A stretch of 64,000 nucleotides of DNA from Candidatus Cloacimonadota bacterium (GTDB lineage: Bacteria; Cloacimonadota; Cloacimonadia; JGIOTU-2), in assembly GCA_034722995.1 (NCBI GenBank), contig JAYEOL010000022.1, positions 4,859-68,858 on the forward strand, in the 5' to 3' direction. Every line of letters begins with the position of its first letter. The stretch's first letter is position 1. Of this stretch, positions 288 through 59,103 are shown piece after piece. Under the pieces are notes generated by a model. It was not told the DNA's origin and made no database searches. It saw only the letters and a program-made list of their open reading frames with translations. A program made the position numbers and the translations under genes.

Positions 288-329
288 AAATTACTATTTT
301 GAATTTAACGACAGAATGGAGATTATGTT

Positions 330-890: not shown

Positions 891-895
891 TTATT

Positions 896-1411: not shown

Positions 1412-1905
1412 AAGAAAAGAAAGATATTAAAGAAAATCTAAATATAGATAAAAATGAAAGTAAAAAAATTTACGATTTGCTTAGAAAGCGAGTTAGAAAA
1501 TCTGCTACTAATTATGTTGGTAAAAGGTATATAAAATTTATAGAATATGTTCTGCTTATTCCAGATTTTTTTATGCTCTTATGGAGATTGATGCTTGATA
1601 AAGAAATAGGAAAAGAGAAAAAATTATTTATTGGAGCTATCACTGCTTATGTACTCCTTCCTATTGATTTGATTCCTGATTTTATACCAGTAATTGGTTT
1701 TGTGGATGATTTGGTTCTAATTGCGATTGGCTTGAACACCATTTTTGTAAAAACAGATAAAAAGATTTTACAAAAGCATTGGAGTGGTGAAGGAGATATT
1801 TTAGAAAGGATTCAATCAATTATAAAACTTGGGAATGATATTTTGTCAAACAGAATAATTGGTAAGATAACTCGTTGGGTGAACAAAAGAGCGGGAATAA
1901 AGTAG
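1408..1905 (+). CDS. DUF1232 (YkvA-like) membrane protein
   Basis: Motif LLPIDLIPDFIPVIGFVDDLVLIAIGL. The start overlaps the previous gene by 4 nt. Confidence 0.7.
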   Translation: MKEKKDIKENLNIDKNESKKIYDLLRKRVRKSATNYVGKRYIKFIEYVLLIPDFFMLLWRLMLDKEIGKEKKLFIGAITAYVLLPIDLIPDFIPVIGFVDDLVLIAIGLNTIFVKTDKKILQKHWSGEGDILERIQSIIKLGNDILSNRIIGKITRWVNKRAGIK

Positions 1906-1929
1906 CAGTTAGCAGAAGCAGCGGCAGTA
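1901..1929. repeat. Left arm of an inverted repeat that flanks the four-helix-bundle gene cassette (agtagcagttagcagaagcagcggcagta)
   Basis: Reverse-complementary to the [GCAGTAG/GCAGTTAG]-type repeats at 2407-2437. Confidence 0.6.
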
Positions 1930-1971
1930 AAGAACGAGGTAAAAAATGTTAGGGGGCTTTGAGGATTTAAA

Positions 1972-2048
1972 GGTTTACCCCGTTGGATACTAAATTGCAT
2001 TTTAACCCATATTTATAGTAAAGAATTCTATATCCAACGGGGTAAACC
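1972..2048. mobile_element. MITE-like element, family A copy 1: perfect 18-bp terminal inverted repeats ggtttaccccgttggata / tatccaacggggtaaacc
   Basis: Read directly; 77 bp; sits in the 5' leader of the four-helix-bundle gene. Confidence 0.6.
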
Positions 2049-2050
2049 AA

Positions 2051-2389
2051 ATGGCTTATGAGTTAGCTATGGAAATTTTTAATATATCAAAATCATTCCC
2101 AAAAGAAGAAATTTATGCCTTAACTGACCAAATCCGGCGTTCTTCACGTTCAGTTTGTTCGAATATAGTAGAAGCTTATCGCAAAAGACGTTATCCAAAG
2201 TATTTTACTTCAAAAATTACAGATGCAGATGGAGAAGCCAGTGAGACTATAGTCTGGATAAATTTTGCAAAAGACTGTAGTTATATTTCTAAAGGTATTT
2301 ATCAAACTTTAACTAGAAGATATGGTGAAGTTGGAAAAATGTTAGGTAGCATGGCTAATCATCCTGAGCGGTTCATCCCCGATAAATAA
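2051..2389 (+). CDS. Four-helix-bundle protein of the '23S rRNA intervening sequence protein' family
   Basis: 112 aa. The translation (EIYALTDQIRRSSRSVCSNIVEAYRKRRYPKYF...) matches the IVS/four-helix-bundle family. The gene is flanked by inverted repeats (see the repeat features). Confidence 0.8.
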   Translation: MAYELAMEIFNISKSFPKEEIYALTDQIRRSSRSVCSNIVEAYRKRRYPKYFTSKITDADGEASETIVWINFAKDCSYISKGIYQTLTRRYGEVGKMLGSMANHPERFIPDK

Positions 2390-2406
2390 ATACAGCTGCC
2401 CCCCTT

Positions 2407-2437
2407 CTAACTGCTACTGCTAACTGCTACTGCTACT
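2407..2437. repeat. Right arm of the inverted repeat flanking the four-helix-bundle gene (ctaactgctactgctaactgctactgctact)
   Basis: Reverse complement of the left-arm motif. Internally a tandem CTGCTA(A)CTG repeat. Confidence 0.6.
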
Positions 2438-2509
2438 TCCATTTAATCAGTAACTTACGCTAAAGGGGAAACATTATCTTATCTTATTAATGTGTTAATA
2501 GTGAAATCT

Positions 2510-3109
2510 ATGAAATTAGTTCTTGCAACTAAAAACAAAGACAAAATACAAGAGATAAAATCCCTTTTACAAGATTTAAACATAGACATTTTAACATTCA
2601 AAGATTTTGACTCTTTTCCTGATACAATTGAAGATAAGCTAACATTAGAAGGTAATGCGGGGAAAAAAGCTCAAGCAATTTGGCAAAATTTCAAACTCCC
2701 TGTTTTGGCTGACGATACAGGTTTATTCGTTGATGCTTTAAATGGCAAACCAGGTGTATATAGCTCCAGATTTGCTGGCGAGAATGCAACATACGAACAA
2801 AATAGAGAAAAACTCCTCTATATGTTAAAGGATATCCCAAAAGAAAAACGAACAGCAACCTTTAAAACAGTTATTGTTTTTGTTGACAAAAAAGGTAGCA
2901 AATTCGTAGTTAATGGTGAATGCAAAGGTTATATTGGATTTGAAGAAAGAGGCAAAAATGGCTTCGGTTATGATTCTATTTTTTATTATGATAATGTAAA
3001 TAAAAGTTTTGCAGAACTCTCCTCAGAGGAGAAGAATAAAGTCAGTCATAGAGGTATTGCTCTCAGAAAAATAAGAAGTATAATTGAGGAAAATATTAAG
3101 AATATATAA
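2510..3109 (+). CDS. rdgB: dITP/XTP pyrophosphatase (RdgB/Ham1 family)
   Basis: MKLVLATKNKDKIQEI..., DDTGLFVDALNGKPGVYS, SHRGIALRKI. The ORF track starts at 2492, but the conserved N-terminus begins at the ATG at 2510. Confidence 0.85.
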   Translation: MKLVLATKNKDKIQEIKSLLQDLNIDILTFKDFDSFPDTIEDKLTLEGNAGKKAQAIWQNFKLPVLADDTGLFVDALNGKPGVYSSRFAGENATYEQNREKLLYMLKDIPKEKRTATFKTVIVFVDKKGSKFVVNGECKGYIGFEERGKNGFGYDSIFYYDNVNKSFAELSSEEKNKVSHRGIALRKIRSIIEENIKNI

Positions 3110-3167
3110 ACCACCAAATTATACTAAATAACAAAAAAAATTAAGTTAGAATGAGGAGAAAGGAACA

Positions 3168-4877
3168 ATGAAAAAAATAATTATATTATCCAAGTTGTTA
3201 CTAATTGCTATCATCCTATTTTCTTTCAGTCTTGCAATAGCAGAGATAATCAATGTACCTAATGACCAGCCGACAATACAAGATGGAATTGATATTGCAG
3301 ATAATTGCGATACAGTTTTAGTTCAACCTGGCACCTATGTAGAAAACATTAATTATAACGGGAAGAACATCACAGTTGGCTCATTATTCCTAACAACCCA
3401 GGATACAATCTATATTTCACAAACCATTATTGATGGTAACGAGGATGGACATGTGGTAGAATTTAGCGGTGGGGAGGATTCAACAGCAATTTTAGCCGGT
3501 TTTATAATTACAAATGGATTTGCTTTAAGAGGTGGTGGGATTTTATGTATACTTTCTTCCAGTCCAAGTTTAACAAATGTAGCTATTATTGAAAATACTG
3601 CTGTACAACATGGTGGTGGGATTTACTGTATTTGTAGTTCTAGCCCAAGTTTAAATAATGTTATAATAGGTGGCAATACTGCTGTTAACGGTAATGGTGG
3701 TGGAGTTTTCTGTTGGGATAATTCTAATCCTATTTTAGGTGATGTTACTATAAGTGGAAATACTGCTGATTGGTATGGTAGTGGTTTTTACTGTAGTGAG
3801 TCAAATCCAATTTTAATCGATGTTACTATCATTGGAAATGCAGGTTATAGTGGTGGAATTTGCTGCTTTTCAAATTCCAATCTCAGTTTAACCAACGTTA
3901 CCATTATAGGAAATGCTGGTTTATATGGTGGTGGCGTTATTTGTGATAATAATTCCAGTCCGAGTTTTACAAATGTTACGATCAGTGAAAATGCTGCAGA
4001 ATATGATGGTGGTGGGATTTTCTGTTGGGATAATTCCAGTCCCATATTGAGCAATGTTACAATCAGTAAAAATACTGCTGAATATGATGGTGGTGGTATC
4101 TACTGTAGAGATTCAAGTCCGATGTTAACCAATGTCACAGTCAGTGGTAATACTGCTTATTATGGGGGTGGGCTCTACTGTGTTAATTCATCTCCCAGTT
4201 TAGTAAATTGTATTCTATGGAATGATACTCCCCAAGAAATCTATGTATATTCTGGAAATGTTTTTTCAACTTATTCAGATATTCAAGGTGGCTGGACTGG
4301 TGAAGGCAACATAGACGCAGACCCATTATTTGCTGACCCGGAAAATGGAGATTTCCATTTAACATGGGCGAACTTTCCAATACAAGATTCTACTATGTCT
4401 CCTTGTATAGATGCTGGTAATCCTGATACAACTGGGCTTAATCTACCACCCTTTGATTTAGATGGAAATCCAAGAATAGTGAATGAAATAATAGATATGG
4501 GTGCTTATGAATGGCAAAAGCAAGTTGGAGTAGATGGGTTTGATGAATCTTCAATAGCTACTGGATTATTCCAGAACTATCCTAATCCATTTAGTACTTC
4601 GACAACTATTTCATTTAATCTAGCCACGAGGTTACACAAATTCCCCCCATTAGATAGCAAGCATCTAACGGGGCAGGCACGAATAAAGATCTATAATGTA
4701 AAAGGACAATTAATTAAGCAATTGTTCCCGATTGCTATCGGGATAAATAATAAATCGTCAATCGAATGGGATGGAAAAGATGAGAATGGTAATCCATTAA
4801 GTTCAGGAATTTATTTCTATAAATTGGAAGTTGGAGATAAAATTATTGACATTAAGAAGTGCCTTTTGTTGAAATAG
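3168..4877 (+). CDS. Secreted protein with right-handed beta-helix repeats and a T9SS C-terminal sorting domain
   Basis: Signal peptide. Many NVTI.GN.A..GGGI.C repeats. C-terminal YQNYPNPF...IYNVKGQLI...GIYFYKL, a type-A T9SS sorting domain. Confidence 0.8.
   Translation: MKKIIILSKLLLIAIILFSFSLAIAEIINVPNDQPTIQDGIDIADNCDTVLVQPGTYVENINYNGKNITVGSLFLTTQDTIYISQTIIDGNEDGHVVEFSGGEDSTAILAGFIITNGFALRGGGILCILSSSPSLTNVAIIENTAVQHGGGIYCICSSSPSLNNVIIGGNTAVNGNGGGVFCWDNSNPILGDVTISGNTADWYGSGFYCSESNPILIDVTIIGNAGYSGGICCFSNSNLSLTNVTIIGNAGLYGGGVICDNNSSPSFTNVTISENAAEYDGGGIFCWDNSSPILSNVTISKNTAEYDGGGIYCRDSSPMLTNVTVSGNTAYYGGGLYCVNSSPSLVNCILWNDTPQEIYVYSGNVFSTYSDIQGGWTGEGNIDADPLFADPENGDFHLTWANFPIQDSTMSPCIDAGNPDTTGLNLPPFDLDGNPRIVNEIIDMGAYEWQKQVGVDGFDESSIATGLFQNYPNPFSTSTTISFNLATRLHKFPPLDSKHLTGQARIKIYNVKGQLIKQLFPIAIGINNKSSIEWDGKDENGNPLSSGIYFYKLEVGDKIIDIKKCLLLK
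4645..4673 (+). repeat. Imperfect palindrome ccccattagat-agcaagc-atctaacgggg inside the T9SS CTD coding sequence of the beta-helix protein
   Basis: 10 of 11 stem positions pair. It sits where this CTD has about 11 extra residues (TRLHKFPPLDSKHLTGQAR) relative to the other two CTDs in the window. Confidence 0.55.
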
Positions 4878-4929
4878 TTGTGAAATGTTAAATAAGAGAT
4901 ATAAACAACATCATAAAAATGAAAATATT

Positions 4930-5101
4930 TAGTGTCTGTCCGTAAGGTCATTGTTTGTAGAACGACCTTTCCGTCTGGGCGCCGAGACTGACCAAGGTCG
5001 TTAATGTAAATAGGCTTTTCATGCCAAAGGCAGATTCCACGGAAAATGTGCCTTAAGAAAACGAGCTTAGAACCTCGTTCTACATTTACGGACAGACACT
5101 A
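4930..5101. mobile_element. 172-bp hairpin element bounded by perfect 16-bp TIRs (tagtgtctgtccgtaa / ttacggacagacacta), GC-richer than its surroundings
   Basis: TIRs read directly. Internal secondary IRs (gtagaacga / tcgttctac). Lies between the T9SS gene and pmm. Confidence 0.6.
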
Positions 5102-5162
5102 TTTAATAAGAATTATAGATTTTTGTGAAATTTTATGGCAAAGTTGATTCATTGGAGGTAAA

Positions 5163-6518
5163 ATGCTTAATCAACAGATATTCCGCGAATATGATATCAG
5201 GGGAGTGGTTGATAAGGACTTAACAGATATTGTTGTCGAAGACATTGCTTTGAGTTTTGGTACTTATATTCGAAACAAGGATTTAAAGAGCATTGCCCTT
5301 GGTAGTGATTGCCGTTTAAGTTCTGATAGATTTCGCCAGATATTCTCTAATGCATTGCTAAAAACCGGCTGTGATGTGGTTGATGTAGGCACTGTACCAA
5401 CTCCTGTTCTCTACTTTGCAATTGAACATCTAAAAACTGATGGTGGAGTAATGATTACTGGAAGTCATAATCCGCCAGAGTTCAATGGATTCAAACTTTG
5501 TGTTGGAACTTTCTCAATTTACGGAAAAGAGATACAAAAAATAAGAGAAATTATTGAAGATGGAGTATATATTGCTGGAAATGGAAAATGTAAACAATAT
5601 AAAAAAGTAATTCAAGATTATCAGAATTATTTAGTTAATAATTTGAATTTGAAAAGAAAATTGAAGGTTGTGGTAGACTCTGGAAATGCCACGGCAGGTC
5701 CAGTTGCTCCGAAACTATTTGAAAGATTGGGATGTGAAGTTATATCTTTATATGAAGACATGGATGGAAATTTTCCCAATCATCACCCTGACCCCACTAT
5801 TCCTGAATATTTGGAAGACCTGATTTTAACCGTGAAGTCTAAAAATGCCGATACAGGTATAGCATTTGATGGCGACGCTGACCGTATTGGTGTAGTTGAT
5901 GAAAATGGTAATATTATCTGGGGAGACCAATTATTGATGATATTTGCCAGAGATGTTTTGGAAACAAATTCCGGGTCAATAATTATTTCTGAAGTTAAAT
6001 CATCTAAGAATCTATATGATGATATTAGCAAACATGATGGTATCCCAATTATGTGGAAAACAGGACATTCGCTAATCAAGCAGAAGATGAAAGAAGAAGG
6101 AGCTTTACTTGGTGGTGAGATGAGTGGTCATATGTTTTTTGCTGATAGATATTTCGGATTTGATGATGCAATCTATGCAGCAGGTAGGCTTATGGAAATA
6201 CTTTCTAAATCTGATTCAAAACTAAGTGAATTACTTGCAGATGTTCCTGAAACATATAATACTCCAGAAATTAGAATTGATTGTCCTGATGAGATAAAAT
6301 TTGAAGTTGTGGAACAAGTAAAAAGTTATTTCTCAAAAAAGAATTATGATATAAACGATATTGATGGAATGCGTATAACTTTTGATGATGGCTGGGCACT
6401 CGTGCGTGCATCAAATACTCAACCGGCTTTGGTCTTAAGATTTGAGAGCACCTCCCAGGAAAGATTAAATGAAATTCAAAAAATGATTACTGAAAAAGTG
6501 CAGGAGTTTATTAAATAG
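5163..6518 (+). CDS. Phosphomannomutase/phosphoglucomutase (alpha-D-phosphohexomutase family)
   Basis: Active-site TGSHNPPEFNGFK, sugar-binding GGEMSGH; 451 aa. Confidence 0.85.
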   Translation: MLNQQIFREYDIRGVVDKDLTDIVVEDIALSFGTYIRNKDLKSIALGSDCRLSSDRFRQIFSNALLKTGCDVVDVGTVPTPVLYFAIEHLKTDGGVMITGSHNPPEFNGFKLCVGTFSIYGKEIQKIREIIEDGVYIAGNGKCKQYKKVIQDYQNYLVNNLNLKRKLKVVVDSGNATAGPVAPKLFERLGCEVISLYEDMDGNFPNHHPDPTIPEYLEDLILTVKSKNADTGIAFDGDADRIGVVDENGNIIWGDQLLMIFARDVLETNSGSIIISEVKSSKNLYDDISKHDGIPIMWKTGHSLIKQKMKEEGALLGGEMSGHMFFADRYFGFDDAIYAAGRLMEILSKSDSKLSELLADVPETYNTPEIRIDCPDEIKFEVVEQVKSYFSKKNYDINDIDGMRITFDDGWALVRASNTQPALVLRFESTSQERLNEIQKMITEKVQEFIK

Positions 6519-6740
6519 AAATCAACAATAGCGTTTGTTACTTTTATTATAAACGATGAATCCTAAAACAGGAAAATAAGTAAAAGGTGATTATTCTTAT
6601 TTAGGGTTATAAGAATAAATCTTGATATTTAAAATACTATTCTACAATCTATAAAAGGTTGTTCAAAACAACCAATCCAAGTGAAATAGAAAAACAGATT
6701 TCACGGGACAGGAATAATAACTAAAAACTTGGAGGATAAC

Positions 6741-8726
6741 ATGAAGAGACAAAATTTAAATGCTAATTTATCTGAGACATACAAGCAATTTGGTATGTTA
6801 AAATGGAAAATTCTATATTTATTCTTGGTTGCCTTATTATTATCAACACAGCTTTTTGCAGAAAATTGGATGCAACTTTATCCAGAAATTGATGGTCCAG
6901 TTGCTGATATGGAATTTTCAGAAATCCCTGGTATTTCTGAATATGGTTTGATTTTTGCTATTGCTGATAGCGGTGGAGGATTAGGATATTTTGATAGTCC
7001 TGGAAACTTTAGTATCTTTAATATTGCGACAAATCTGGGAGCAGTTTCTGTTGCACCTGATAATGCAAACAACCGTATTTTCTGTGCTTTTGGCTGTGGA
7101 AGTTATAGTGATGGACTCTATGAATTTGATGTTGCTACACATCAATTTGAACTAATAGAATGGGCTTTTAATCCAAATTTTGTAGAAAAACTTGCATCAG
7201 GATATTACTTTGGCTTTGGATGGGATTGGTTCGGAGGATTGTTTCATTCTGTTGATGGAGATAACTGGGCAAGCATTGATTATTTTAACAATAAAGTGGT
7301 AAGAGATATTGAAGAGACAAGTGATGGCACTCTCTTTGTTGCAGCGGGAAATGAAATTTGTATTGCAAACGATACTACTTTTAGCTCATTTGATACTGAT
7401 TTGCCAGTAAATGATATTTATGTTTGCCATTACCCAACAGAAGAGGTTTTTATTGCTTGTGGAGATGGCACTGATTCTGATGGAATTTATAAAGTAGAAT
7501 ATGAAGATGGAGAGATTACAGGGCTTACTTTGATAAACTGGGCAATTTATCCGAATGAAATTTATGAGTATACAGATTGGCTTGTAGTTGGATGTTTAAA
7601 TTCAGAGGGTCTCTGGCTTGTAGAACCAGTAGAAATGGGTGAAATACATCAAATAGGCACAGAACTTGATTTTGAGGATGTTTACTGTTTTGAAACATAT
7701 CCGATATATTGTCACAACATTATGGTTGGCACTGACAATGGAGTTTATTTAGGAACAAATTTGGAACCTGGTCCTTGTAATATTTCTGTATTTGAAGCAC
7801 ATTGGAATAGTTCGGATAATGTGTCAATTATTCATTGGCGAACTGAATCTGAAACAGATGTTATTGGTTTTTATATCTATCGTAATGATGAGCCTGATTT
7901 TAGCACAGCAGAACTAATTTCTGGTTTAATCCCCGGTCATGGCACTACAACAGAACCCCATGATTATTATTTTATAGATGTTGGCATAGTACCATATCCA
8001 ATGGATGAATATTGGTATTGGCTGGAAAGTGTAGATTTTGGTGGAGAATTCCATATTTATGGACCAACCAATTTACTCATTCCAAATTGTGTCCTTTCTA
8101 TTTTTGTTGCACAATATTTAGATAATACTCCAACTCTTTATTGGATAACACAATCAGAGACAGATAATTTAGGCTGGAATATTTATCGTTCAATAAATGA
8201 TGGTTTGTTTGCCAGTGCAGAGATGATAAATATTGGGTTGATTCCTGGCTATGGCACAACAACTGAACCACATAGTTATATTTATGAAGATCCGGATTTG
8301 GAAGCCAATTCAGGAGATATTATTTGGTATTGGCTGGAGAGTATAGATTTTGGTGGAGTATCTTATATTTATTATCCACCTGCAAGTCTGGTCATTCCGG
8401 AGATTGGTATTGATGAGAGACCTGCACACTCATCAGGTGTTGTATTATATCAGAATTTTCCCAATCCGTTTAGTCCCCGATTTAATCGGGGATCAACCAT
8501 GATTTCTTTCAATTTAGCCACAAAATCACACAAAAAAGCACTAATAAAAATTTACAATGTCAAAGGACAGATTGTAAAACAATTGTCAATAGTCAATTGT
8601 CAATCGTCAATTGAATGGGATGGAAAAGATGAAAATGGCAAACTACTTTCTAATGGAATTTATTTCTACAGATTGACAGTTGACGATAAGATTATTGATA
8701 CAAAAAAATGTGTGATTTTGAGATAA
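6741..8726 (+). CDS. Secreted T9SS cargo protein with two tandem repeats of about 100 aa
   Basis: GGAGGA RBS immediately before the ATG at 6741 (the track start at 6729 is TTG). Internal repeats ETD..G..IYR...GLIPG.GTTTEPH...WYWLES.DFGG. C-terminal YQNFPNPF...IYNVKGQIV...GIYFYRL. Confidence 0.75.
   Translation: MKRQNLNANLSETYKQFGMLKWKILYLFLVALLLSTQLFAENWMQLYPEIDGPVADMEFSEIPGISEYGLIFAIADSGGGLGYFDSPGNFSIFNIATNLGAVSVAPDNANNRIFCAFGCGSYSDGLYEFDVATHQFELIEWAFNPNFVEKLASGYYFGFGWDWFGGLFHSVDGDNWASIDYFNNKVVRDIEETSDGTLFVAAGNEICIANDTTFSSFDTDLPVNDIYVCHYPTEEVFIACGDGTDSDGIYKVEYEDGEITGLTLINWAIYPNEIYEYTDWLVVGCLNSEGLWLVEPVEMGEIHQIGTELDFEDVYCFETYPIYCHNIMVGTDNGVYLGTNLEPGPCNISVFEAHWNSSDNVSIIHWRTESETDVIGFYIYRNDEPDFSTAELISGLIPGHGTTTEPHDYYFIDVGIVPYPMDEYWYWLESVDFGGEFHIYGPTNLLIPNCVLSIFVAQYLDNTPTLYWITQSETDNLGWNIYRSINDGLFASAEMINIGLIPGYGTTTEPHSYIYEDPDLEANSGDIIWYWLESIDFGGVSYIYYPPASLVIPEIGIDERPAHSSGVVLYQNFPNPFSPRFNRGSTMISFNLATKSHKKALIKIYNVKGQIVKQLSIVNCQSSIEWDGKDENGKLLSNGIYFYRLTVDDKIIDTKKCVILR
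8474..8492 (+). repeat. 19-nt palindrome tccccgatt-t-aatcgggga inside the T9SS CTD coding sequence (encodes the extra peptide PRFNRGS)
   Basis: A near-identical copy, tccccgatttactcgggga, lies in non-coding DNA at 46350-46368. Confidence 0.7.
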
Positions 8727-8749
8727 TATTTTGGAGTGTGAAAAATATT

Positions 8750-8777
8750 GCGAGAATATAAATATTCTCGCTTTACC
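8750..8777 (+). terminator. Rho-independent terminator of the T9SS cargo gene
   Basis: gcgagaatat-aa-atattctcgc hairpin followed by ttta. Confidence 0.6.
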
Positions 8778-8843
8778 CCGTATGATAATAAGTAGATTAG
8801 AATAAGTTTTACTTGTAATTTATAATGTATCTTACGGGGTAAA
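8772..8843. mobile_element. MITE-like element, family A copy 2: TIRs tttaccccgtatgata / tatcttacggggtaaa (15/16 complementary)
   Basis: Same TIR consensus TTTACCCCGTNNGATA as copy 1, different internal sequence; lies directly after a terminator. Confidence 0.55.
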
Positions 8844-8960
8844 TCAATAAAAGAATGCTAAAGCATCCTATTTGAAATATCATTTAAAATCATTAATGAT
8901 GCTTTCCTTGATTTAGTGTGATAGTTTACTTCAACTAATTTAGAAAGGATAAAAATCCTT

Positions 8961-9710
8961 ATGATTCAAATAGAGAACCTATGTAAGACTTATATCAATA
9001 AGAAAAAAGGTGTTACAACAAAAAAAGAAGCTGTAATAAATCTCAATTTTGAATGTAAACCCGGAAAAATATTTGGCTTACTCGGACCAAATGGAGCAGG
9101 TAAGACAACAACTCTGCGTTGTATTTCTACACTTATTAAGCCAACTTCTGGCTTAATTAAAGTTAATGGATATGATATTCTTAAGGACGAAAAAAAGGTT
9201 CGTGCAATTATCGGATTTCTTACAAGTGATATGAAGTTAGATGGTTATTTCACACCAAATTATATGCTGGATTATTTTGGAAAACTAAACAAAATGAGTT
9301 CAGAAAATATCAAACAGAGAAAAGAGGGATTATTTTCAGAATTAGAAATGGAAGATTTCATTGATATTAAGATTGATAAACTGTCTTCAGGAATGAAACA
9401 GAAAACCTCACTTGCAATCAGTCTTATTCATAACCCTGACATAATTGTGTTTGATGAGCCAACGAGTGGACTGGATGTTATTACTGCAAAAAATGTTACG
9501 GATTTTTTACGCAAATCTGCTAATGAAGATAAGACAGTTATTATCTCTACACATATTATGAGTGTGGCAGAAAAACTTTGTGACGAGATAGGCATCTTAA
9601 TTGAAGGTGAATTAAAAGAACTTGGAACCCTTTCTGAAATCCTTTCAAAAAATAAAGCAGATAATTTAGAAGATGTATTTTTTAAGCATCTAGGAGTTGA
9701 AAATGTTTAG
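8961..9710 (+). CDS. ABC transporter ATP-binding protein
   Basis: Walker A GPNGAGKTTT, signature LSSGMKQK, Walker B IIVFDEPTSGLD. Confidence 0.9.
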   Translation: MIQIENLCKTYINKKKGVTTKKEAVINLNFECKPGKIFGLLGPNGAGKTTTLRCISTLIKPTSGLIKVNGYDILKDEKKVRAIIGFLTSDMKLDGYFTPNYMLDYFGKLNKMSSENIKQRKEGLFSELEMEDFIDIKIDKLSSGMKQKTSLAISLIHNPDIIVFDEPTSGLDVITAKNVTDFLRKSANEDKTVIISTHIMSVAEKLCDEIGILIEGELKELGTLSEILSKNKADNLEDVFFKHLGVENV

Positions 9711-10941
9711 AGATTCTTTAATAATAATGAACAAAGAATTAAAGAGACTTTTTACAGATAGAAAAATGATATTTCTTCTCGTATTAGTCCCTTTACTTAT
9801 ATTACCTGTAATGTATTCTGTTATGGGTTATATGGAAAAAGTAAGACACAAAGATATAAGTGAATACGAAGCAGACATTTTTGTTTATCCGGGTGAACAA
9901 AATGAAACATCTGTATTTGATAGATTCCATAATGAACTTAAAGAATTCAATGCTAAGTTGAATATAATTCCTGAACAGCAAATTGATATATCAAAAGATT
10001 TAATAACAGAAAAAGAGTCGGAATTACTGATAGTATTTCCAGATAACATACAGAAAAGATTTGGAGATATGGCTCCATTTGATATTCAATTATATTATAA
10101 TGCAAGTTCTGATTATTCCTCTCATATATATTATAAAACAAGGAATTCGTTTGATGCAATTGGTGATACTCTTATTGTTGAGAGATTGGAAAGAATGAAA
10201 CTACCTACTGAGATTCTCAGTCCTTTTACAATAAATAAAACTATTACTCCAGAGGAAGCTAATCTTGCAAAGAAAGGAAGTATTGCTGGCAAATTATTAG
10301 GGATATTGCTCCCATTCTTTATTTTAATATACCTATTCTCAAATTCTTTAACTGTTGGCACAGATACAGTTGCTGGTGAGAAAGAGCGAGGAACTCTTGC
10401 TATTCTACTGGTGAATCAGGTTGATAGACTTTCTATAATAGTTGGGAAGATGCTTTCTGTGATATGTGCCGCGTTTGTCGGTGCTGTAAGTTCAGTAGCT
10501 GGACTTATTATCGGCTCTCGTTTTTTTATTTCAATGTTTGGTGGTTCAATGAAGGAAATGAAAGGTTTTGTATTACTCGCAAAAGATTATCTCCAATTTG
10601 CGATAATATTAATCCCTGTAGCGATGTTGGTAGTAGCTATTGTTATGATCTTATCAACTTATGCCAGAAATATTAAAGAAGCTCAAGGTATGATTATGCC
10701 CGTATATTTTGTTGTGATGATTATTGGAGTTTCAACTATGAGAATGAGTGAGACCCCATCTACATGGATGATTTATACTCCAATTTTTAATTCTCTTATC
10801 TCACTTAAATCAATTTTTATGCAAAATGCAATCTGGGGGAATGTATTGATTTCTGCTTTTAGCTGCCTTATCTTAGCAGGAATTTTGATTTACTATATGC
10901 TGAAAATGTTTAAGGATGAGAGGATATTGTTCAGGATTTGA
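9697..10941 (+). CDS. ABC-2 family transporter permease
   Basis: Overlaps the ATPase gene by 14 nt. Multi-span hydrophobic protein of 414 aa. Confidence 0.75.
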   Translation: MKMFRDSLIIMNKELKRLFTDRKMIFLLVLVPLLILPVMYSVMGYMEKVRHKDISEYEADIFVYPGEQNETSVFDRFHNELKEFNAKLNIIPEQQIDISKDLITEKESELLIVFPDNIQKRFGDMAPFDIQLYYNASSDYSSHIYYKTRNSFDAIGDTLIVERLERMKLPTEILSPFTINKTITPEEANLAKKGSIAGKLLGILLPFFILIYLFSNSLTVGTDTVAGEKERGTLAILLVNQVDRLSIIVGKMLSVICAAFVGAVSSVAGLIIGSRFFISMFGGSMKEMKGFVLLAKDYLQFAIILIPVAMLVVAIVMILSTYARNIKEAQGMIMPVYFVVMIIGVSTMRMSETPSTWMIYTPIFNSLISLKSIFMQNAIWGNVLISAFSCLILAGILIYYMLKMFKDERILFRI

Positions 10942-12679: not shown

Positions 12680-14473
12680 ATGAAACAATTACTAATTTAT
12701 CTATTGACAATGTGCTTTTCTGCACAACTATTCAGTTTGGATTATATTGAGAGTTCCAGTGGCTTGAATATTCCACAATTAGACGGTGGAAGGACCGAAT
12801 TAGAATTTGCAGATATTGATGCAGATGGTAATATTGACATCTTGTCCATTGGTGACCATGGTTCACCTTATATTAATACCAGTGAGCATGGCATTATGGT
12901 TTGGTTTGGAGATGGAAATGGCAGTTGGGGTGTGTATCAGAATGGAAATTTTGGTTATGGAGGTATTGCAGTCGGAGATGTCAATAATGATGGTTTGCTG
13001 GATGTTGGATATGCAATGCATCACAATTATTCAAGTAGTGATTTTGGAAACCAGCTTATTGAAGTTGCATTGGGCGATGGAACGGGAATGAATTGGACCC
13101 CCTGGGATGATGGATTGGCAACAAATGGTGAAACTTGGGGAATGTTTGGCACTGATTTCGCAGATGTTGATAATGATGGTGATTTAGATATTGGAAGTAA
13201 TTCTTTTGGTTCTGGTGCAGGTGTGCATATTTATCTAAATCAAGGTGATGGCAGTTGGATACAGTCTTTTGGATTTCTCGGAGGAAACTCTGATATGGAC
13301 TTCATTTTTGGCGATATCAACAACGATGGCAATATAGATTTTGCTGCCAAACATCAATATGGAACTGTTTATTTTGGTGACGGAACTGGAAACTTTGTCA
13401 ATGCAGATGGAAATCTACCATCTTATAGCAAATATGGAACAGCTCTTGGCGATGTAGATAATGATGGTGGAAAGGATATTTCATTTGTTACAGGTTATTC
13501 AAATGCAGGTGTAAAGGTCTGGGTATGGGATGAAGGCCAGGAAGTATGGACGGATTTTTCAGGGAATCTTCCTACAACCGGTGGTTATGAAGCAACTCAA
13601 TTATATGATATGAATGTTGATGGATACATAGATTTATGTACTTTTGGGAATGGCACATTTACTTTATGGCTTGGTGATGGGGCAGGAAACTGGGACCAAG
13701 ATGCTCAATTTAACACACCACTTTATGGCTATTGTGAAGCATTCCGAGTAGGTGGAGATATAGACCATAATGGTTTTCCCGATATAGTATTAGTCTCTGA
13801 TGAGGGTTCATGGCCTAGTTCATATAATCATTTGCATTGTTTTAAAGAAACTGCCGTAGCAGAAAGTCTGACAATTACACCGATGTCTCCAAGAGGGAAT
13901 GAGTATTTCATCAGATTTTCTACACAATTTATTGATTGGGTTTCCGCTGTACCTGATGATGACTCATCGCTTGTTAAACTTGAGTATTCAAGATTTGGGA
14001 ATAATGGTCCTTGGGCAATGATTGCAGATAGTTTGCCTAATAATGGTCGTTATCAATGGACAATTGCACGAATCAGCTCATCAGATTGTTATATCCGCTA
14101 TACTGTTTGGACAGTAACAGATACTGTAACATCAATTACCCCGTCTGCTTTTTCGGTTTCTAGTACTCCACCAGCAACGGATGATATATCTATAAATCAA
14201 AAAGCCTTCATACAAAATTATCCTAATCCATTTGACAAACAAACTACGATTAAATTTTCTATTCCAAAAGATTGCTATGTAGAATTAAATATTTATGATA
14301 TTAAAGGCAAATGGCTTAAAACATTAGTAAATAGAAGAATGAAAGCAGGGTCTCATAATATTGTTTGGAATGGGAGGAATCATAATAATACCATTCTTCC
14401 CAATGGTATCTATCTTTATCAGATTAAGATAGATGATTATTATTTAAATAAAAAGATGTTGTTATTAAGATGA
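12680..14473 (+). CDS. FG-GAP repeat (integrin-alpha-like beta-propeller) protein with a T9SS C-terminal domain
   Basis: Repeated D.D.DG..D motifs (DIDADGNIDI, GDVNNDGLLDV, ADVDNDGDLDI, GDINNDGNIDF, GDVDNDGGKDI). C-terminal IQNYPNPF...IYDIKGK...GIYLYQI. Confidence 0.8.
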   Translation: MKQLLIYLLTMCFSAQLFSLDYIESSSGLNIPQLDGGRTELEFADIDADGNIDILSIGDHGSPYINTSEHGIMVWFGDGNGSWGVYQNGNFGYGGIAVGDVNNDGLLDVGYAMHHNYSSSDFGNQLIEVALGDGTGMNWTPWDDGLATNGETWGMFGTDFADVDNDGDLDIGSNSFGSGAGVHIYLNQGDGSWIQSFGFLGGNSDMDFIFGDINNDGNIDFAAKHQYGTVYFGDGTGNFVNADGNLPSYSKYGTALGDVDNDGGKDISFVTGYSNAGVKVWVWDEGQEVWTDFSGNLPTTGGYEATQLYDMNVDGYIDLCTFGNGTFTLWLGDGAGNWDQDAQFNTPLYGYCEAFRVGGDIDHNGFPDIVLVSDEGSWPSSYNHLHCFKETAVAESLTITPMSPRGNEYFIRFSTQFIDWVSAVPDDDSSLVKLEYSRFGNNGPWAMIADSLPNNGRYQWTIARISSSDCYIRYTVWTVTDTVTSITPSAFSVSSTPPATDDISINQKAFIQNYPNPFDKQTTIKFSIPKDCYVELNIYDIKGKWLKTLVNRRMKAGSHNIVWNGRNHNNTILPNGIYLYQIKIDDYYLNKKMLLLR

Positions 14474-34216: not shown

Positions 34217-34732
34217 ATGAAAGAACTTTCAGATGAATATTGGATGAATATTGCATTAGAAGAAGCACAAACTGCCTTTGCAGAAGATGAAATTCCCATA
34301 GGTGCAGTTTTGGTATGCAATGATAAACTTATTGCCCGAGCTCATAATAGCACGCAGAGATTAAATAGTCCTCTGGCTCATGCAGAAAAATTAGTTATTG
34401 AATTGGCTCAACAGGAATTGGGAAAGTGGTTATGTGATTGCAGATTGTATATAACACTCGAGCCATGTGCAATGTGTGCTGGTGCGATTATTCTCTCAAG
34501 AATAAAATCAGTAATTTTTGGTACTTTTGATGAGAAAAACGGGGCATGTGGGTCTTTATATAATTTGCTTTCAGATAGGCGATTTAATCATAATCCCGAA
34601 GTAAAATCTGGTATTTTCGCAAAAGAATCCAGTGAACTCTTGAAGAGATTTTTTAATGAAAAGAGAATTTCAACCACCTGCCTTTTCACCCTTCGTCCCG
34701 ATGAAATCGGGACTACGGAGAACGGGCGTTAA
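34217..34732 (+). CDS. tadA: tRNA-specific adenosine deaminase TadA with a roughly 21-aa C-terminal extension
   Basis: HAE and PCAMCAGA zinc-binding motifs. The canonical C-terminus (...LKRFFNEKR) is followed by ISTTCLFTLRPDEIGTTENGR, encoded by a repeat module. Confidence 0.85.
   Translation: MKELSDEYWMNIALEEAQTAFAEDEIPIGAVLVCNDKLIARAHNSTQRLNSPLAHAEKLVIELAQQELGKWLCDCRLYITLEPCAMCAGAIILSRIKSVIFGTFDEKNGACGSLYNLLSDRRFNHNPEVKSGIFAKESSELLKRFFNEKRISTTCLFTLRPDEIGTTENGR
34695..34713 (+). repeat. Hairpin module gtcccga-tgaaa-tcgggac inside the 3' extension of tadA. Copies of the same family lie at 58909-58928, 59041-59066 and 57632-57651.
   Basis: Read directly. The flanking ctacggagaacgggcg is also a recurring module. 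Confidence 0.65.
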
Positions 34733-46192: not shown

Positions 46193-47200
46193 ACTTTTTA
46201 TAAACAGTTTAGTTTTCATATTTTAAAAGCAGGCATCATTGACAATGGTAAAATGAAGTTGCCATTTTAGATGCTAAACTCTCCACCTAAATCTTTTAAA
46301 TCCGAAAGAGGATAAACCTGTTTCTACCCACCAACTGACAGGTATCCCTTCCCCGATTTACTCGGGGATAATTGTGGATGGCTTTTCATCCTTCGCAGTA
46401 GCACTGCTACGGAGAATGGATATCCCCAATCAAAATAAAGTGAAAGTTATTTCCAATGGGAAAGATCTATTTCTAAAGCCCTTACTTTTTTTAAAAAAGT
46501 TAAACGAAACTCAATTTTTGGTAAATTAGAAATCGAAATAATCAAATTCTTTTGAAATATTACCTTTAATAGATTTTCTTAACTCTCTAATTTTATTGAA
46601 AGACATTTCTGATAGTTTTATTTTAGGAGTAATAAAAATTTTTACTTCTATGTTATCGGGAAAAGGAATATTGTCTAATTCTAAATCTCCTATCCGGGAA
46701 GGTATTATGAATTGTTTTTTTATCATCTAAAGTCATCACACGAAGAAATTTGTCACCCAACTCAGGGATTATACCCAAAAAGGATATCTATTACCTTCCT
46801 GTCTTTCTACTTTAATTGGTTTCTCTAAAACCCGAATATACTATTCCTTTTTAAGATAAGGTCGTTTTATCAAAAACTTACTTTCAAAATATTTGGTCCG
46901 CCAACTGGCGGATATTTTAACATCACATACCTTATTTACTGAAGTTTTTGTTCATAATAAAAGAATTTCTGTCTAACTAATAATTATACTGCATATTCCA
47001 GTCTAACATCCTATCTTATTCGTTAACAACTCAATTATATAATGCAAGTTACCAAAATAAATAAATGAGAGAAAACTTGTATTATATTTAATCAAAATAA
47101 TTTATTTAAAAAGAAGTGTAAATTAAAAAGAATTAATTTTTGCTTGACATTAAAATTTAAAGAGACAATTTCAGTGTACTTTTCAATGGAAAAGTGAAAA

Positions 47201-57339: not shown

Positions 57340-57827
57340 GCATAATTCCAGAGAAGTAGCATTCCGATTTATCGGAGTGAATATAGGTAGTCATAAAATT
57401 TTATAGCTAACTCTTTCAAACAAGTATGAAATTTGAGGAGTCCCGAAAACAAATTGGGGCATCCCATTAAATAGGAAAAGATTTAACCCCAGTGAAATAG
57501 TCCCGATATACCCGTTCTCCCCGCCTTCCATCCGGATTTGTCGGGAGGACTGCGTTTCGGAGCTGGCGGGTAGATTCGGGTTTATCCCAAATCAAAATAA
57601 AATGAAGGCGTTTTCAGATGAAACATACATGTCCCCGATGTCTCGGGGACGCAAAGGAGAATGAAAATTGAATTTGTTTGCGTTACAAAGTAAAATTTTG
57701 GTAAAGAACTGGATTCCCGCGTTCGCGGTAATGACAGCTTGTTTTGACATTTGTGATTGTTAGCACCAGTTATGATTATAATGAATAAGGTGTACTTTGT
57801 GCCTTTGTGGTTAGAAAGGATTTTCAG

Positions 57828-58899: not shown

Positions 58900-59006
58900 C
58901 CATCCTCCGTCCCGAAAAAAGTCGGGACTGCGCCTGTCCACCGTAATATCCGTTCTCCATAGCAGTGCTACTGCGAAGGATGAACTATGGAAGGCGGGGA
59001 GGATGG
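58900..59006. repeat. Nested IR element: outer ccatcctcc / ggaggatgg enclosing hairpin gtcccgaaaaaagtcgggac and a ctccatag[cagtgctactg]…ctatggaag stem
   Basis: Read directly. The core ccgttctccatagcagtgctactgcgaaggatgaa recurs in the opposite orientation at 46385-46419. Confidence 0.55.
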
Positions 59007-59103
59007 GAAGAGCAAAGATTAAAGACCAAAGCAATCCGTCTTCGTCCCGATAAAAGATTCGGGACTACGCCGAGACTGAAGAAAAAGCAATGAATAATGA
59101 ACA

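What the first reader, a model, noticed from the sequence alone, without database searches (positions are those of the whole stretch)
8474..8492. Hairpin module inside the coding sequence of a T9SS C-terminal sorting domain, with a near-identical intergenic copy
The CTD of the 6741-8726 cargo protein reads NPF-S[PRFNRGS]TMISF. The bracketed residues are encoded by the perfect palindrome tccccgatt-t-aatcgggga. The same 19-mer with two loop changes (tccccgatttactcgggga) lies in non-coding DNA at 46350-46368, and the third CTD in the window (14190-14250) has no such segment. So a mobile hairpin has landed in frame in a secretion signal domain.
Basis: seen in the sequence. Interest (0 to 1): 0.7.

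Follow-up and report, generated by a model that had tools for sequence, protein, structure and literature searches.

The report
Small hairpin repeat inserted in secretion tag
A 19-base DNA hairpin found between genes in this Cloacimonadota genome has also been copied, in frame, into a loop of a protein's secretion tag; related genomes do the same repeatedly, so these tags act as a tolerated landing place for small selfish repeats.

Summary
TCCCCGATTTAATCGGGGA lies at 8474-8492 inside the T9SS C-terminal sorting domain (CTD) of gene 6741-8726. A copy differing at one base, not two, lies in non-coding DNA at 46350-46368. A third, 4-nt-loop variant is at 57631-57650.

Seven related empty-site CTD sequences read AGT GGT TCx, AGT ACT TCA or AGC ACT TCA. 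The window therefore carries a 15-nt in-frame insertion (8475-8489, PRFNR).

The same hairpin occurs in at least four other Cloacimonadota species. There it is mostly intergenic, often nested in larger hairpins, and sits at two different CTD loops in two reading frames. Mutated, decayed copies also exist. Other intergenic palindromes of this window occur in CTD loops of orthologues, in both orientations.

In the window, GC-rich hairpins are about 100 times denser in CTD-coding DNA than in other coding DNA.

The AlphaFold2 model places the insertion in a disordered coil just before the first CTD strand.

I read it as a REP-like hairpin repeat tolerated in a cleavable domain. How it is copied is not shown: no transposase lies in the window, and the local copy may have arrived by CTD-to-CTD conversion. 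It is a new variant of a known kind (intragenic REPs, Rickettsia palindromic elements).

The parts
6741..8726 (+). Cargo gene, 661 aa: N-terminal hydrophobic helix, beta-rich propeller-like region, two Ig-like repeats and a T9SS type A C-terminal sorting domain.
   Evidence: ORF and translation. Exact protein P0001 carries precomputed PF18962 Por_Secre_tail, PF13860 and PF13585. AlphaFold2 model has mean pLDDT 86.9.
8454..8726 (+). CTD-coding segment (NFPNPF ... KKCVILR*).
   Evidence: Predicted strands at residues 586-591, 600-605, 611-617, 623-626, 639-647 and 650-659.
8474..8492 (+). H19 hairpin TCCCCGATTTAATCGGGGA, a perfect 9-bp stem. It reads (S)PRFNRG in frame.
   Evidence: RNA fold -13.9 kcal/mol for the stem-loop. 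No T-tail, so it does not look like a terminator.
8475..8489 (+). The 15 nt (CCC CGA TTT AAT CGG = PRFNR) that are absent from orthologues; this is the net in-frame insertion.
   Evidence: Empty sites read AGT GGT TCC/TCA in L121, L135, L136, L137, L138 and the L139 third gene, and AGC ACT TCA in L130.
46350..46368 (+). Intergenic H19 copy TCCCCGATTTACTCGGGGA (18/19 identical).
   Evidence: No terminator-like tail.
46341..46424 (+). Composite of three hairpins closed by GGTATCC/GGATATCC. It contains the intergenic H19 copy and the 39-nt repeat.
   Evidence: Fold z-scores -3.3 (RNA) and -3.5 (DNA). No Rfam match.
57631..57650 (+). Third copy of the same stem with a 4-nt loop: GTCCCCGA-TGTC-TCGGGGAC. 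Intergenic.
   Evidence: -15.5 kcal/mol, z -3.4.
46385..46423 (+). 39-nt palindromic repeat (R39: ..CCTTCGCAGTAGCACTGCTACGGAGAATGG..). The same module is inserted in CTD loop 2 of orthologues P0003 and P0121.
   Evidence: Inverted repeat I2, 95%. P0003 versus P0006 shows a clean 36-nt in-frame insertion; P0121 carries the module in the opposite orientation.
58946..58984 (-). Second copy of R39, inverted, inside a nested hairpin composite at 58900-59006.
   Evidence: DNA fold z -5.7.
4726..4743 (+). Related hairpin TCCCGAT-TGCT-ATCGGGA in loop 3 of the other CTD (gene 3168-4877; FPIAIGI). This is +4 aa relative to the syntenic orthologue P0121.
   Evidence: The same hairpin type occurs in P0006 loop 3.
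4645..4673 (+). Imperfect palindrome CCCCATTAGAT..ATCTAACGGGG in loop 2 of the same CTD (PPLDSKHLTG).
   Evidence: The same arms occur as a separated inverted pair in intergenic DNA of the close relative L028.
34695..34713 (-). GTAG-tagged REP of the sister family (on the minus strand, GTAG-TCCCGAT-TTC-ATCGGGA-C). It overlaps the last codons of the tadA-like ORF 34217-34732.
   Evidence: Conserved CTCCGTAGTCCCGA..TCGGGACGAAGG units occur in L019 and L136.
58909..58928 (-). Intergenic copy of the GTCCCGA..TCGGGAC REP-like family.
59044..59065 (-). Intergenic copy of the GTCCCGA..TCGGGAC REP-like family; GTAG tag on the minus strand.

Best explanation
The palindrome at 8474-8492 is a copy of a short, GC-rich, REP-like hairpin repeat, which I call H19 (T-CCCCGA-TTTAM-TCGGGG-A). 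H19 proliferates in the AT-rich genomes of this Cloacimonadota lineage. Its copies lie mainly in intergenic DNA, often inside the loops of other hairpins. They survive inside genes almost only in the loops of T9SS C-terminal sorting domains. Here the repeat added 15 nt (PRFNR) between the conserved PNPF motif and the first beta strand of the CTD. That segment is predicted to be a disordered coil. The insertion keeps the frame and introduces no stop, so the gene stays intact. By established knowledge of T9SS, the CTD is cleaved off after export.

Shown: the insertion relative to orthologues; the multi-locus, multi-genome, multi-frame distribution; the enrichment in CTD loops; and the later decay of some copies.

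Inferred: the way it is copied. I think the most likely route is copying from another genomic copy through a single-stranded hairpin intermediate at the replication fork. That step could be catalysed in trans by a REP-associated HUH/Y1 transposase-like enzyme encoded elsewhere in the genome, or it could happen by polymerase template switching helped by microhomology, since the outer T and GGA of the palindrome are supplied by the target. Paralogous CTDs would then spread the insertion by short-patch conversion. Copies persist because selection on CTD loops is weak, not because the hairpin does anything for the protein.
For: - Insertion. The positional orthologues and paralogues L121, L135, L136, L137, L138 and L139 read TTT AGT GGT TCx. 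L130, the CTD with the closest flanks (8 differences in 63 nt), reads AGC ACT TCA. The window reads AGT [CCC CGA TTT AAT CGG] GGA TCA. The 3-residue spacing holds in 70 of 86 homologous CTDs.
- Repeat family. There are 2 near-identical copies plus 1 variant in the window. It returned 11, 5, 3 and 3 copies in four other Cloacimonadota MAGs. About 200 kb of Cloacimonadota DNA holds 55 (C)CCCGA..TCGGG(G) hairpins, including a GTAG-tagged sister family.
- DNA-level behaviour. The same 19-mer lies in CTD loop 1 (PRFNRG; window, L116 x2, L061) and in CTD loop 3 (PRFTRG in L116 x2; VPDLIGD, a different frame, in L022). It also lies in intergenic DNA and nested in larger palindromes (L040, L049, L060, L065, L073). 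Stuttered arms occur in L051 and L113.
- Other modules behave the same way. The window's intergenic 39-nt repeat is a clean 36-nt in-frame insertion in loop 2 of P0003. It is absent from P0006 of the same sample and is present in the opposite orientation in P0121. Intergenic hairpins of the TCCGCC-ARCT-GGCGGA type recur in CTD loops of L139 and L022.
- Enrichment. In the window, 2 strict hairpins lie in 0.87 kb of CTD-coding DNA, against 1 in 49.9 kb of other coding DNA; that one sits in the last codons of an ORF. Fourteen lie in 13.2 kb of intergenic DNA (P = 9e-4). Across 27 CTDs there are 11 hairpins in 7.6 kb, against 2 in 22.8 kb of upstream coding DNA of the same genes.
- Flanking repeats. 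3-nt direct repeats flank 8 of 29 H19 copies, about 5 of them independent; P about 1e-4.
- Tolerated position. Residues 574-582 have pLDDT below 50 and are coil, directly before strand 586-591.
- No selection for the hairpin. Decayed copies occur at the same site: AAT AAG GGA in L145, and CCC GGA..CGG GGT in L146.
- Independent assemblies carry the insertion, so it is not an assembly artefact.
Against: - No transposase, HUH enzyme or recombinase was found among 50 window ORFs. No cognate enzyme was identified anywhere.
- The CTD copy has no flanking direct repeat (TAG | TCA). The net gain is 15 nt rather than 19 nt, so it is not a simple cut-and-paste of a fixed unit.
- The identical 24-nt segment, junctions included, in CTDs with diverged flanks fits short-patch conversion or strict site specificity at least as well as random transposition.
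- H19 lacks the GTAG/CGTC tag of classical REPs.
- The same 19-mer also occurs in unrelated phyla in other contexts, including terminators. Part of its wide occurrence may therefore be convergent.
- The set of Cloacimonadota loci was retrieved by the pattern itself, so copy-context proportions are biased. The enrichment in the unbiased subset is weaker (P = 0.016 when the finding itself is excluded).
Confidence: 0.72

Rival explanations
1. Local mutational origin. The palindrome arose in place by replication template switching (a quasi-palindrome or snap-back event) at the NPF-coding site, with no donor copy and no mobile family.
For: The outer T and GGA of the palindrome are native codon bases. 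The hairpin core CGATTTAATCGG resembles the common CTD coding string CCGTTTAATCC for P-F-N-P. REP-type loop-1 insertions such as NPDNIGT (P0159) appear to reuse the native AAT CCC codons as part of the left arm; this is inferred from the peptide, not from DNA. Stuttered arms in L051 and L113 point to slippage on hairpins.
Against: The same 19-mer, loop included, occurs at unlinked intergenic and coding sites in this window and in four other species. The flanks are unrelated, and a second CTD loop is also hit. Independent local events would not converge on one sequence.
Confidence: 0.1
2. Functional nucleic-acid element. The hairpins are kept in CTD-coding 3' regions because they act on the mRNA or DNA, as a decay barrier, a pause or attenuation site, or a recombination hotspot that shuffles CTD cassettes.
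For: Density is about 100-fold higher in CTD-coding than in other coding DNA. The copies in the window and in L116 are perfectly conserved while their flanks diverge. CTDs of neighbouring genes are visibly mosaic: ATKSHKKA loop 2 sits on different genes in the window and in L139, and the 3' half of the window CTD matches the CTD of another L139 gene.
Against: Copies at the same site decay by point mutation with the peptide retained. Many unrelated hairpin sequences, positions, frames and both orientations are used. There is no T-tract. Most CTDs have none, including one in this window.
Confidence: 0.12
3. Protein-level motif. PRFNRG is a selected peptide, for example a processing or recognition site, in a subfamily of CTDs.
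For: The same frame (PRFNRG / PRFTRG) is used in 6 of 7 CTD copies. The peptide survives hairpin decay as PRFNKG in P0256 and PGFNRG in P0265.
Against: Identical DNA occurs in non-coding regions, and in another frame (VPDLIGD) in L022. One of the three forward frames contains a stop (TCC CCG ATT TAA), so the choice of frame is constrained anyway. The model shows a disordered coil. Orthologues lack the peptide.
Confidence: 0.03
4. Assembly or sequencing artefact in a metagenome-assembled genome.
For: The source is a MAG, and P0001 is known from a single contig. Palindromes can be created by chimeric reads.
Against: The same insertion with the same junctions is present in independent assemblies from other samples and species (L116 x2, and decayed in L145). 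The 15 nt are in frame.
Confidence: 0.02

Closest known systems
REP / REPIN sequences mobilised by RAYT (TnpA-REP, HUH Y1 transposases), including intragenic REPs (Di Nocera et al. 2013, PMC3733652; Corneloup et al. 2021, PMC8266576)
   Same: Palindromes of about 20-40 nt, GC-rich, at high copy, mostly intergenic and downstream of genes. They sometimes provide the stop codon or sit inside ORFs, and sometimes insert within other palindromes (PMC3733652). A GTAG-tagged sister family with almost the same stem (GTAG-TCCCGAT..ATCGGGA-C) is present in this window and in relatives.
   Different: H19 has no GTAG or CGTC tag. No RAYT gene was found. Copies often carry 3-nt flanking direct repeats. Intragenic copies concentrate in one protein domain (T9SS CTD loops) rather than being scattered or in repair genes. 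The unit is at the very short end of the range (19 nt; 15 nt net here).
Rickettsia palindromic elements (RPE; Ogata et al. 2000/2002, cited in PMC10969869 and PMC3733652)
   Same: Palindromic repeats inserted in frame into functional protein-coding genes. They add a peptide at a structurally tolerant surface position, and the same family also sits in intergenic DNA.
   Different: RPEs are about 100-150 bp and add 30-50 residues, occur in many unrelated genes, and are confined to Rickettsia. H19 adds 5-6 residues, is found in Cloacimonadota, and is concentrated in one domain type.
Bacterial MITEs (Correia/NEMIS, ERIC, Chunjie, Nezha; review PMC10969869)
   Same: Non-autonomous, structured repeats. 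Short flanking direct repeats occur at several copies. They nest and form composites, and occasionally make in-frame fusions.
   Different: MITEs are 50-400 bp, with terminal inverted repeats that match a parent IS. H19 is a bare 19-nt palindrome with no recognisable parent element.
Quasi-palindrome template-switch mutagenesis (replication-based perfection or creation of short palindromes; my own knowledge of the E. coli literature)
   Same: Short palindromes are created or extended using adjacent sequence. There is microhomology at the junctions, as with the T / GGA here.
   Different: That process gives locus-specific sequences, not one 19-mer shared by unlinked loci and by different species.

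Membership tests
REP (GTAG/CGTC-tagged repetitive extragenic palindromes) | Short (20-40 bp) GC-rich palindrome able to fold as a stem-loop | tested here: met
   19-nt perfect palindrome with a 7-9 bp stem; -12 to -15.5 kcal/mol.
REP (GTAG/CGTC-tagged repetitive extragenic palindromes) | High copy number within a genome | tested here: inconclusive
   There are 3 copies in 64 kb here.
REP (GTAG/CGTC-tagged repetitive extragenic palindromes) | Conserved GTAG or CGTC tetranucleotide at one end | tested here: not met
   H19 flanks are variable. The CTD copies have TTAG, one base off GTAG. The sister family GTAG-TCCCGAT..ATCGGGA-C does carry the tag.
REP (GTAG/CGTC-tagged repetitive extragenic palindromes) | Predominantly extragenic location | tested here: met
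   About 20 of 29 H19 copies in Cloacimonadota loci are outside long ORFs. In the window, 14 of 17 strict hairpins are intergenic.
REP (GTAG/CGTC-tagged repetitive extragenic palindromes) | Cognate RAYT/TnpA-REP gene flanked by the repeats (a REPtron) | tested here: inconclusive
   No Y1/HUH transposase was found among 50 ORFs of the window. The rest of the genome was not available.
Rickettsia palindromic elements (RPE) | In-frame insertion of a palindromic repeat in a functional ORF | tested here: met
   A 15-nt in-frame insertion. The ORF is intact and the CTD motifs are kept.
Rickettsia palindromic elements (RPE) | Element of about 100-150 bp encoding a conserved peptide of 30-50 aa; Rickettsia lineage | tested here: not met
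   19 nt / 5-6 aa, in Candidatus Cloacimonadota.
MITE | Target-site duplication | tested here: inconclusive
   3-nt direct repeats flank 8 of 29 copies (P about 1e-4). They are absent at the CTD copy and at many others, and several lie in low-complexity DNA.
MITE | Terminal inverted repeats related to a parent IS; length 50-400 bp | tested here: not met
   The whole unit is a 19-nt palindrome. No IS or transposase lies in the window.
T9SS type A C-terminal sorting domain (PF18962 / TIGR04183) - the host domain | C-terminal position with conserved PNPF, IxIYN, WDG, GIYFY and KKxxLLK-type motifs, and a profile match | tested here: met
   Motifs are present in the translation. PF18962 is precomputed for the identical protein P0001. 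P574, N575, P576, F577, T586 and I588 are invariant in 66 homologues.
T9SS type A C-terminal sorting domain (PF18962 / TIGR04183) - the host domain | Beta-sandwich fold | tested here: met
   Six predicted strands between residues 586 and 659, block pLDDT 84-88; the insertion is in the preceding coil.
T9SS type A C-terminal sorting domain (PF18962 / TIGR04183) - the host domain | Actual T9SS-dependent export and CTD cleavage | not testable with these tools
   Needs secretion assays or proteomics. No T9SS machinery genes lie in the window.

The most novel reading that the evidence does not exclude
H19 and its companion modules (15-36 nt) are true ultra-short mobile DNA, the smallest transposable units described. 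They would have a 3-nt target duplication and a real target preference for hairpin loops and for specific codon strings of T9SS sorting domains (for example TTT AGT^GGN TCA). Their breakage-prone palindromes would drive the mosaic cassette exchange seen among CTDs in Cloacimonadota.
Probability: 0.2. Interest if true: 0.75.

Novelty: new variant of a known kind. Interest (0 to 1): 0.55.

Why it matters
- It gives a natural insertion map of the T9SS sorting signal. At least three CTD loops accept 4-18 extra residues in intact, predicted-functional genes: after PNPF, before IxIYN, and before WDG. This is directly useful for engineering T9SS cargo tags and for reading CTD profile matches, which drop to 'weak' in such proteins.
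- It shows that a cleavable secretion domain can act as a safe harbour for REP-like repeats inside genes. That sharpens the long-standing question of how REPs spread: clean filled and empty sites in coding DNA give exact junctions, which intergenic copies rarely do.
- It flags an undescribed repeat repertoire in an uncultured phylum. These repeats will confuse gene callers, domain annotation and assembly.

Tried and rejected
- Metagenome scan for filled and empty alleles using the exact flanks (AATCCGTTTAG N1-31 TCAACNANNATTTC). Of 12 loci, 11 were chance matches. Only L130 was a CTD, with an empty site. No near-identical strain was found.
- Homologue search with the 95-aa CTD alone. It gave only 11 short fragments, useful as leads (P0121) but not as a survey.
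- The representative search was dominated by multi-repeat FlgD-Ig proteins. Only the 23 single-stretch hits were informative.
- Rfam at gathering threshold on the whole window, and at E<=1 on 45.9-62.4 kb. It found only two tRNAs and a chance miRNA hit, so the intergenic composites are not a described RNA family.
- Terminator reading. Neither H19 copy has a T-tail.
- CRISPR-repeat reading. I recalled a resemblance of TTCCCCG..CGGGGATAA to type I-E repeats. There is no regularly spaced array in the window, so I dropped it.
- Target-site duplication at the CTD copy. It is absent (TAG | TCA). A scenario of a 22-nt insertion followed by a 7-nt slippage deletion between GGA repeats fits the arithmetic but cannot be tested.
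- Clean filled/empty comparison of intergenic DNA with the closest relative (window 284-330 versus L028 4894-5200). The spacer differs by about 265 nt of several modules, so it is too complex to assign to H19.
- Viral contig scan. Four hits, not followed up.
- Search for a transposase in the window. None found.
Full report
**1. The observation**

Positions 8474-8492 read TCCCCGATTTAATCGGGGA, a perfect 9-1-9 palindrome. It lies in frame in ORF 6741-8726. The C-terminus of that ORF is a T9SS type A sorting domain:

...YQNFPNPF-SPRFNRGS-TMISFNLATKSHKKALIKIYNVKGQ...WDGKDENG...GIYFYRL...KKCVILR*

The identical protein in the public collection is P0001, from a Candidatus Cloacimonadota MAG. It carries precomputed PF18962, PF13860 and PF13585.

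A second copy, TCCCCGATTTACTCGGGGA, lies at 46350-46368. It differs at one base, not two. No shuffle of the window gave any match with up to three mismatches. The uniform expectation for up to one mismatch is 3e-5.

A third copy of the stem with a 4-nt loop, GTCCCCGA-TGTC-TCGGGGAC, lies at 57631-57650.

The 46350 copy is in a stretch of about 0.9 kb with no ORF above 66 aa and no Pfam hit. This stretch lies between a truncated alanine racemase gene and the AdoHcy hydrolase gene.

**2. It is an insertion**

I looked at 86 homologues whose CTD could be parsed. Seventy have exactly three residues between NPF and T.I.F, and only this protein has PRFNRG. The 70-78% identical orthologues P0002, P0003, P0005 and P0006 read NPF-SGS-TTISF.

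At the DNA level the empty sites read as follows:
- TTT AGT GGT TCC/TCA ACC in L121, L135, L136, L137, L138 and a neighbouring CTD gene of L139.
- AGC ACT TCA in L130. This is the CTD whose flanks are closest to the window, with 8 differences in 63 nt.
- AGT ACT TCA in L116 gene A.

The window reads TTT AGT [CCC CGA TTT AAT CGG] GGA TCA ACC.

The net gain is therefore 15 nt, or five residues (8475-8489). The outermost T and the GGA of the palindrome are ordinary codon bases of the target.

L139 and L028 come from the closest available relative, with housekeeping genes 86-95% identical and full synteny over window 1-10939. Its positional orthologue P0011 also has an empty loop 1 (DAF).

**3. 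It belongs to a repeat family that acts at the DNA level**

Four other Cloacimonadota MAGs carry 11, 5, 3 and 3 copies.

In those loci plus the window, most of the 29 copies are outside long ORFs. The remaining copies and notable arrangements are:
- Seven copies are in CTDs.
  - Loop 1, between PNPF and the first strand: the window, two genes in L116 with the same junctions, and L061 with different junctions (NPDN-PRFNRG-GT).
  - Loop 3, between KxL and WDG: two genes in L116 (PRFTRG, the C-loop variant seen at 46350), and L022 in a different reading frame (VPDLIGD).
- Two copies lie in other long open frames: L015 4170, where the 508-aa frame looks coding, and L113, whose coding status is uncertain.
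- Several copies are nested in the loops of larger palindromes (L040, L049, L060, L065, L073).
- Some show stuttered half-arms (L051, L113).

3-nt direct repeats (CAA, TTG, TTA, CTA) flank 8 of the 29 copies. About five of these are independent, against 0.5 expected; P about 1e-4.

A broader pattern finds 55 (C)CCCGA-loop-TCGGG(G) hairpins in about 200 kb. These include a GTAG-tagged unit, CTCC-GTAG-TCCCGAT-loop-ATCGGGA-CGAAGG. That unit is a classical REP signature as defined in PMC3733652. One copy overlaps the last codons of the tadA-like ORF at 34695-34713. H19 has the same stem plus one C:G pair, but no tag.

**4. CTD loops are a general sink for such modules**

The other CTD in the window (gene 3168-4877) has two of them. 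TCCCGAT-TGCT-ATCGGGA sits in loop 3 (4726-4743), which is +4 aa relative to its syntenic orthologue P0121. The palindrome CCCCATTAGAT..ATCTAACGGGG sits in loop 2 (4645-4673).

The window's intergenic 39-nt repeat (46385-46423, with an inverted copy at 58946-58984) recurs in orthologues:
- In loop 2 of P0003 it is a clean 36-nt in-frame insertion: AAC ACA [CCCGTTCTCCGTAGCAGTGCTACTGCGAAGGGTGAA] AAG AGC.
- It is absent from P0006 of the same sample.
- It is present in the opposite orientation in P0121.

Other cases:
- P0042 has a different GC-rich hairpin in loop 1.
- L139 has TGTGGAGAG-T-CTCTCCACA and ATCCCGA-TAAAA-TCGGGA in loop 3, and a copy of the intergenic TCCGCCAACTGGCGGA type in loop 2.
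- L022 has ATCCGCC-AGCT-GGCGGAT at the loop-3 site where L116 has H19.

Counts of strict hairpins (perfect stem of at least 7 bp, at least 4 G/C):

| DNA class | Hairpins | Length | Source |
|---|---|---|---|
| Window, intergenic | 14 | 13.2 kb | |
| Window, CTD-coding | 2 | 0.87 kb | |
| Window, other coding | 1 | 49.9 kb | |
| 27 CTDs, CTD-coding | 11 | 7.6 kb | |
| Same genes, upstream coding | 2 | 22.8 kb | |

The window comparison of CTD-coding against other coding DNA gives P = 9e-4. In the loci chosen by protein homology only, and leaving out the finding itself, the enrichment is still nominally significant (P = 0.016).

The canonical PNPF-to-IxIYN distance is 17 residues in 54 of 92 CTDs. 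It expands to as much as 30 in the close relatives.

Six of the 23 closest single-domain CTD representatives carry hairpin-derived loop-1 insertions.

**5. Consequence for the protein**

The AlphaFold2 model was built from 66 aligned homologues and has mean pLDDT 86.9. Residues 574-582 (PNPFSPRFN) have pLDDT below 50 and are coil, immediately before the first CTD strand (586-591). The rest of the CTD is a confident six-strand sandwich.

The conserved residues P574, N575, P576, F577, T586 and I588 are intact. The insertion adds no stop. One of the three forward frames of the A-loop variant would add one (TCC CCG ATT TAA), which limits the frames in which a copy can survive.

By established knowledge of T9SS, the CTD is removed by the PorU sortase after export. 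That would explain the weak constraint on its loops. Export itself was not testable here.

**6. No sign that the hairpin itself is selected**

- At the same site and with the same junctions, P0256 (L145, a C25 peptidase) reads AGC CCC CGA TTT AAT AAG GGA.
- P0265 (L146) reads CCC GGA TTT AAT CGG GGT where L061 has the perfect H19. The stem is broken in both and the peptide is kept.
- Neither window copy has a terminator tail.
- Rfam has no family for the intergenic composites. They are nevertheless strongly structured: 46341-46424 has z about -3.4 and 58900-59006 has z -5.7.

**7. Mechanism: what is shown and what is inferred**

Shown:
- An insertion relative to orthologues.
- A conserved 19-mer at unlinked sites, in several species, in two frames and at two loops.
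- Companion modules in both orientations.
- Nesting in hairpin loops.
- Short flanking repeats at some copies.
- Decay at others.

Not shown: how copies are made.

No transposase, HUH enzyme or recombinase is encoded in the window.

Two features argue against simple cut-and-paste of a fixed unit. The net gain is 15 nt, with four palindrome bases supplied by the target. And the 24-nt string AGTCCCCGATTTAATCGGGGATCA is identical in CTDs whose downstream sequence is 22-56% different.

These features fit microhomology-assisted copying from another copy, by template switching or short-patch conversion. They also fit a site-specific single-strand enzyme of the RAYT / IS200-IS605 kind. That kind of enzyme acts on folded ssDNA and leaves no duplication (PMC8266576, PMC6006769).

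I commit to 'REP-like repeat copied through a single-stranded hairpin intermediate and retained because CTD loops tolerate it' at 0.72 overall. I put enzyme-mediated spread at only about one third of that.

**8. Comparison with what is known**

Intragenic REPs, and REPs inserted inside other palindromes, have been reported (PMC3733652). In-frame palindromic elements are classic in Rickettsia (PMC10969869).

Full-text searches found nothing on Cloacimonadota repeats or on repeat insertions in T9SS sorting domains.

What is new here:
- The lineage.
- The very small unit.
- The lack of a GTAG/CGTC tag on H19.
- The concentration of several module families in three loops of one secretion domain.

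This is a new variant of a known kind, not a new category.

**9. Verdict**

Interest is moderate (0.55). The finding is unsurprising in principle to people who know REPs and RPEs. It is still a clean and previously undescribed case. It gives exact junctions for studying REP spread, and a natural map of permissive sites in the T9SS signal.

Noticed in passing
window 3168-4877 (hairpins at 4645-4673 and 4726-4743): The other CTD protein in the window (beta-helix / PMP repeats) also carries palindromic modules in CTD loops 2 and 3. The arms of the loop-2 palindrome occur about 100 nt apart as an inverted pair in intergenic DNA of the close relative L028 (4945-5050).
   Followed up: partly
window 8579-8610: A tandem of four 7-mers (TTGTCAA TAGTCAA TTGTCAA TCGTCAA) encodes SIVNCQSSI in CTD loop 3. 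It is conserved in orthologues and many paralogues. L116 and L022 have other 7-mer arrays (ATGACAA; GAGTTAN) at the same loop, with hairpins sitting between the units.
   Followed up: partly
window 34217-34732 and 34687-34722: The tadA-like deaminase ORF runs into a GTAG-tagged REP, which supplies its last ~12 codons and lies just before its stop.
   Followed up: partly
window 46341-46424 and 58900-59006: Nested multi-hairpin composites closed by an outer stem (GGTATCC/GGATATCC and CCATCCTCC/GGAGGATGG). Folding z-scores range from -3.3 to -5.7. There is no Rfam family for them.
   Followed up: partly
window 52700-63700: A cassette-like island, all on the + strand. It holds HepT and PIN genes; three SSB paralogues (about 55112-55466, 55818-56170 and 56993-57340, 93-96% identical over 300 nt); DUF6036/DUF2204 nucleotidyltransferases; DUF5674; and Schlafen AlbA_2. 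The genes are separated by hairpin repeats and TAAAG-rich low-complexity DNA. Whether this is an integron-like array was not tested.
   Followed up: no
L001-L120 (for example L032, L043, L085, L063, L070, L017, L097): The same 19-mer is embedded in other repeat families of unrelated phyla. These are GTCAT-[hairpin]-ATCCAG units, sometimes self-nested, in Nitrospirota, Thermodesulfovibrionales, Omnitrophota and CPR; CCAG-[hairpin]-CCCGCTC in Dehalococcoidia; and TGTCA-[hairpin]-TCTATGG in Alphaproteobacteria. It also serves as a plain terminator stem in Sphingobacterium.
   Followed up: no
window 6741-8726 versus L139 10001-13048: The closest relative has two CTD genes (570 aa and 441 aa) where the window has one (661 aa). 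The 3' half of the window CTD matches the CTD of the second L139 gene (84%). The window's loop-2 string ATKSHKKA sits on a different gene in L139. CTDs are therefore mosaic between neighbouring genes.
   Followed up: partly
window 34874-35310: Two tRNA-Ser genes (GGA and CGA anticodons) are each followed by the same 45-65 nt repeat (34929-35023 and 35176-35310), which contains a hairpin.
   Followed up: no
window 35365-35400 and 61640-61705: Two very long perfect hairpins. The first is GGTGAAATAATCCTGA-TATA-TCAGGATTATTTCACC, a 16-bp stem. The second is a CACCCTGTTAAAT..ATTTAACAGGGTG hairpin with ATCCCGATATATCGGGAT nested in its loop.
   Followed up: no
window 14536-15840: An RmuC-family gene lies next to the third CTD gene. 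From my own knowledge, E. coli RmuC limits inversions at short inverted repeats. Any link to the palindrome load is speculative.
   Followed up: no
window 44997-45833 and 37239-38336: Two alanine-racemase-like ORFs. The one upstream of the intergenic hairpin region lacks the first ~100 positions of the N-terminal domain profile, so it may be truncated.
   Followed up: no
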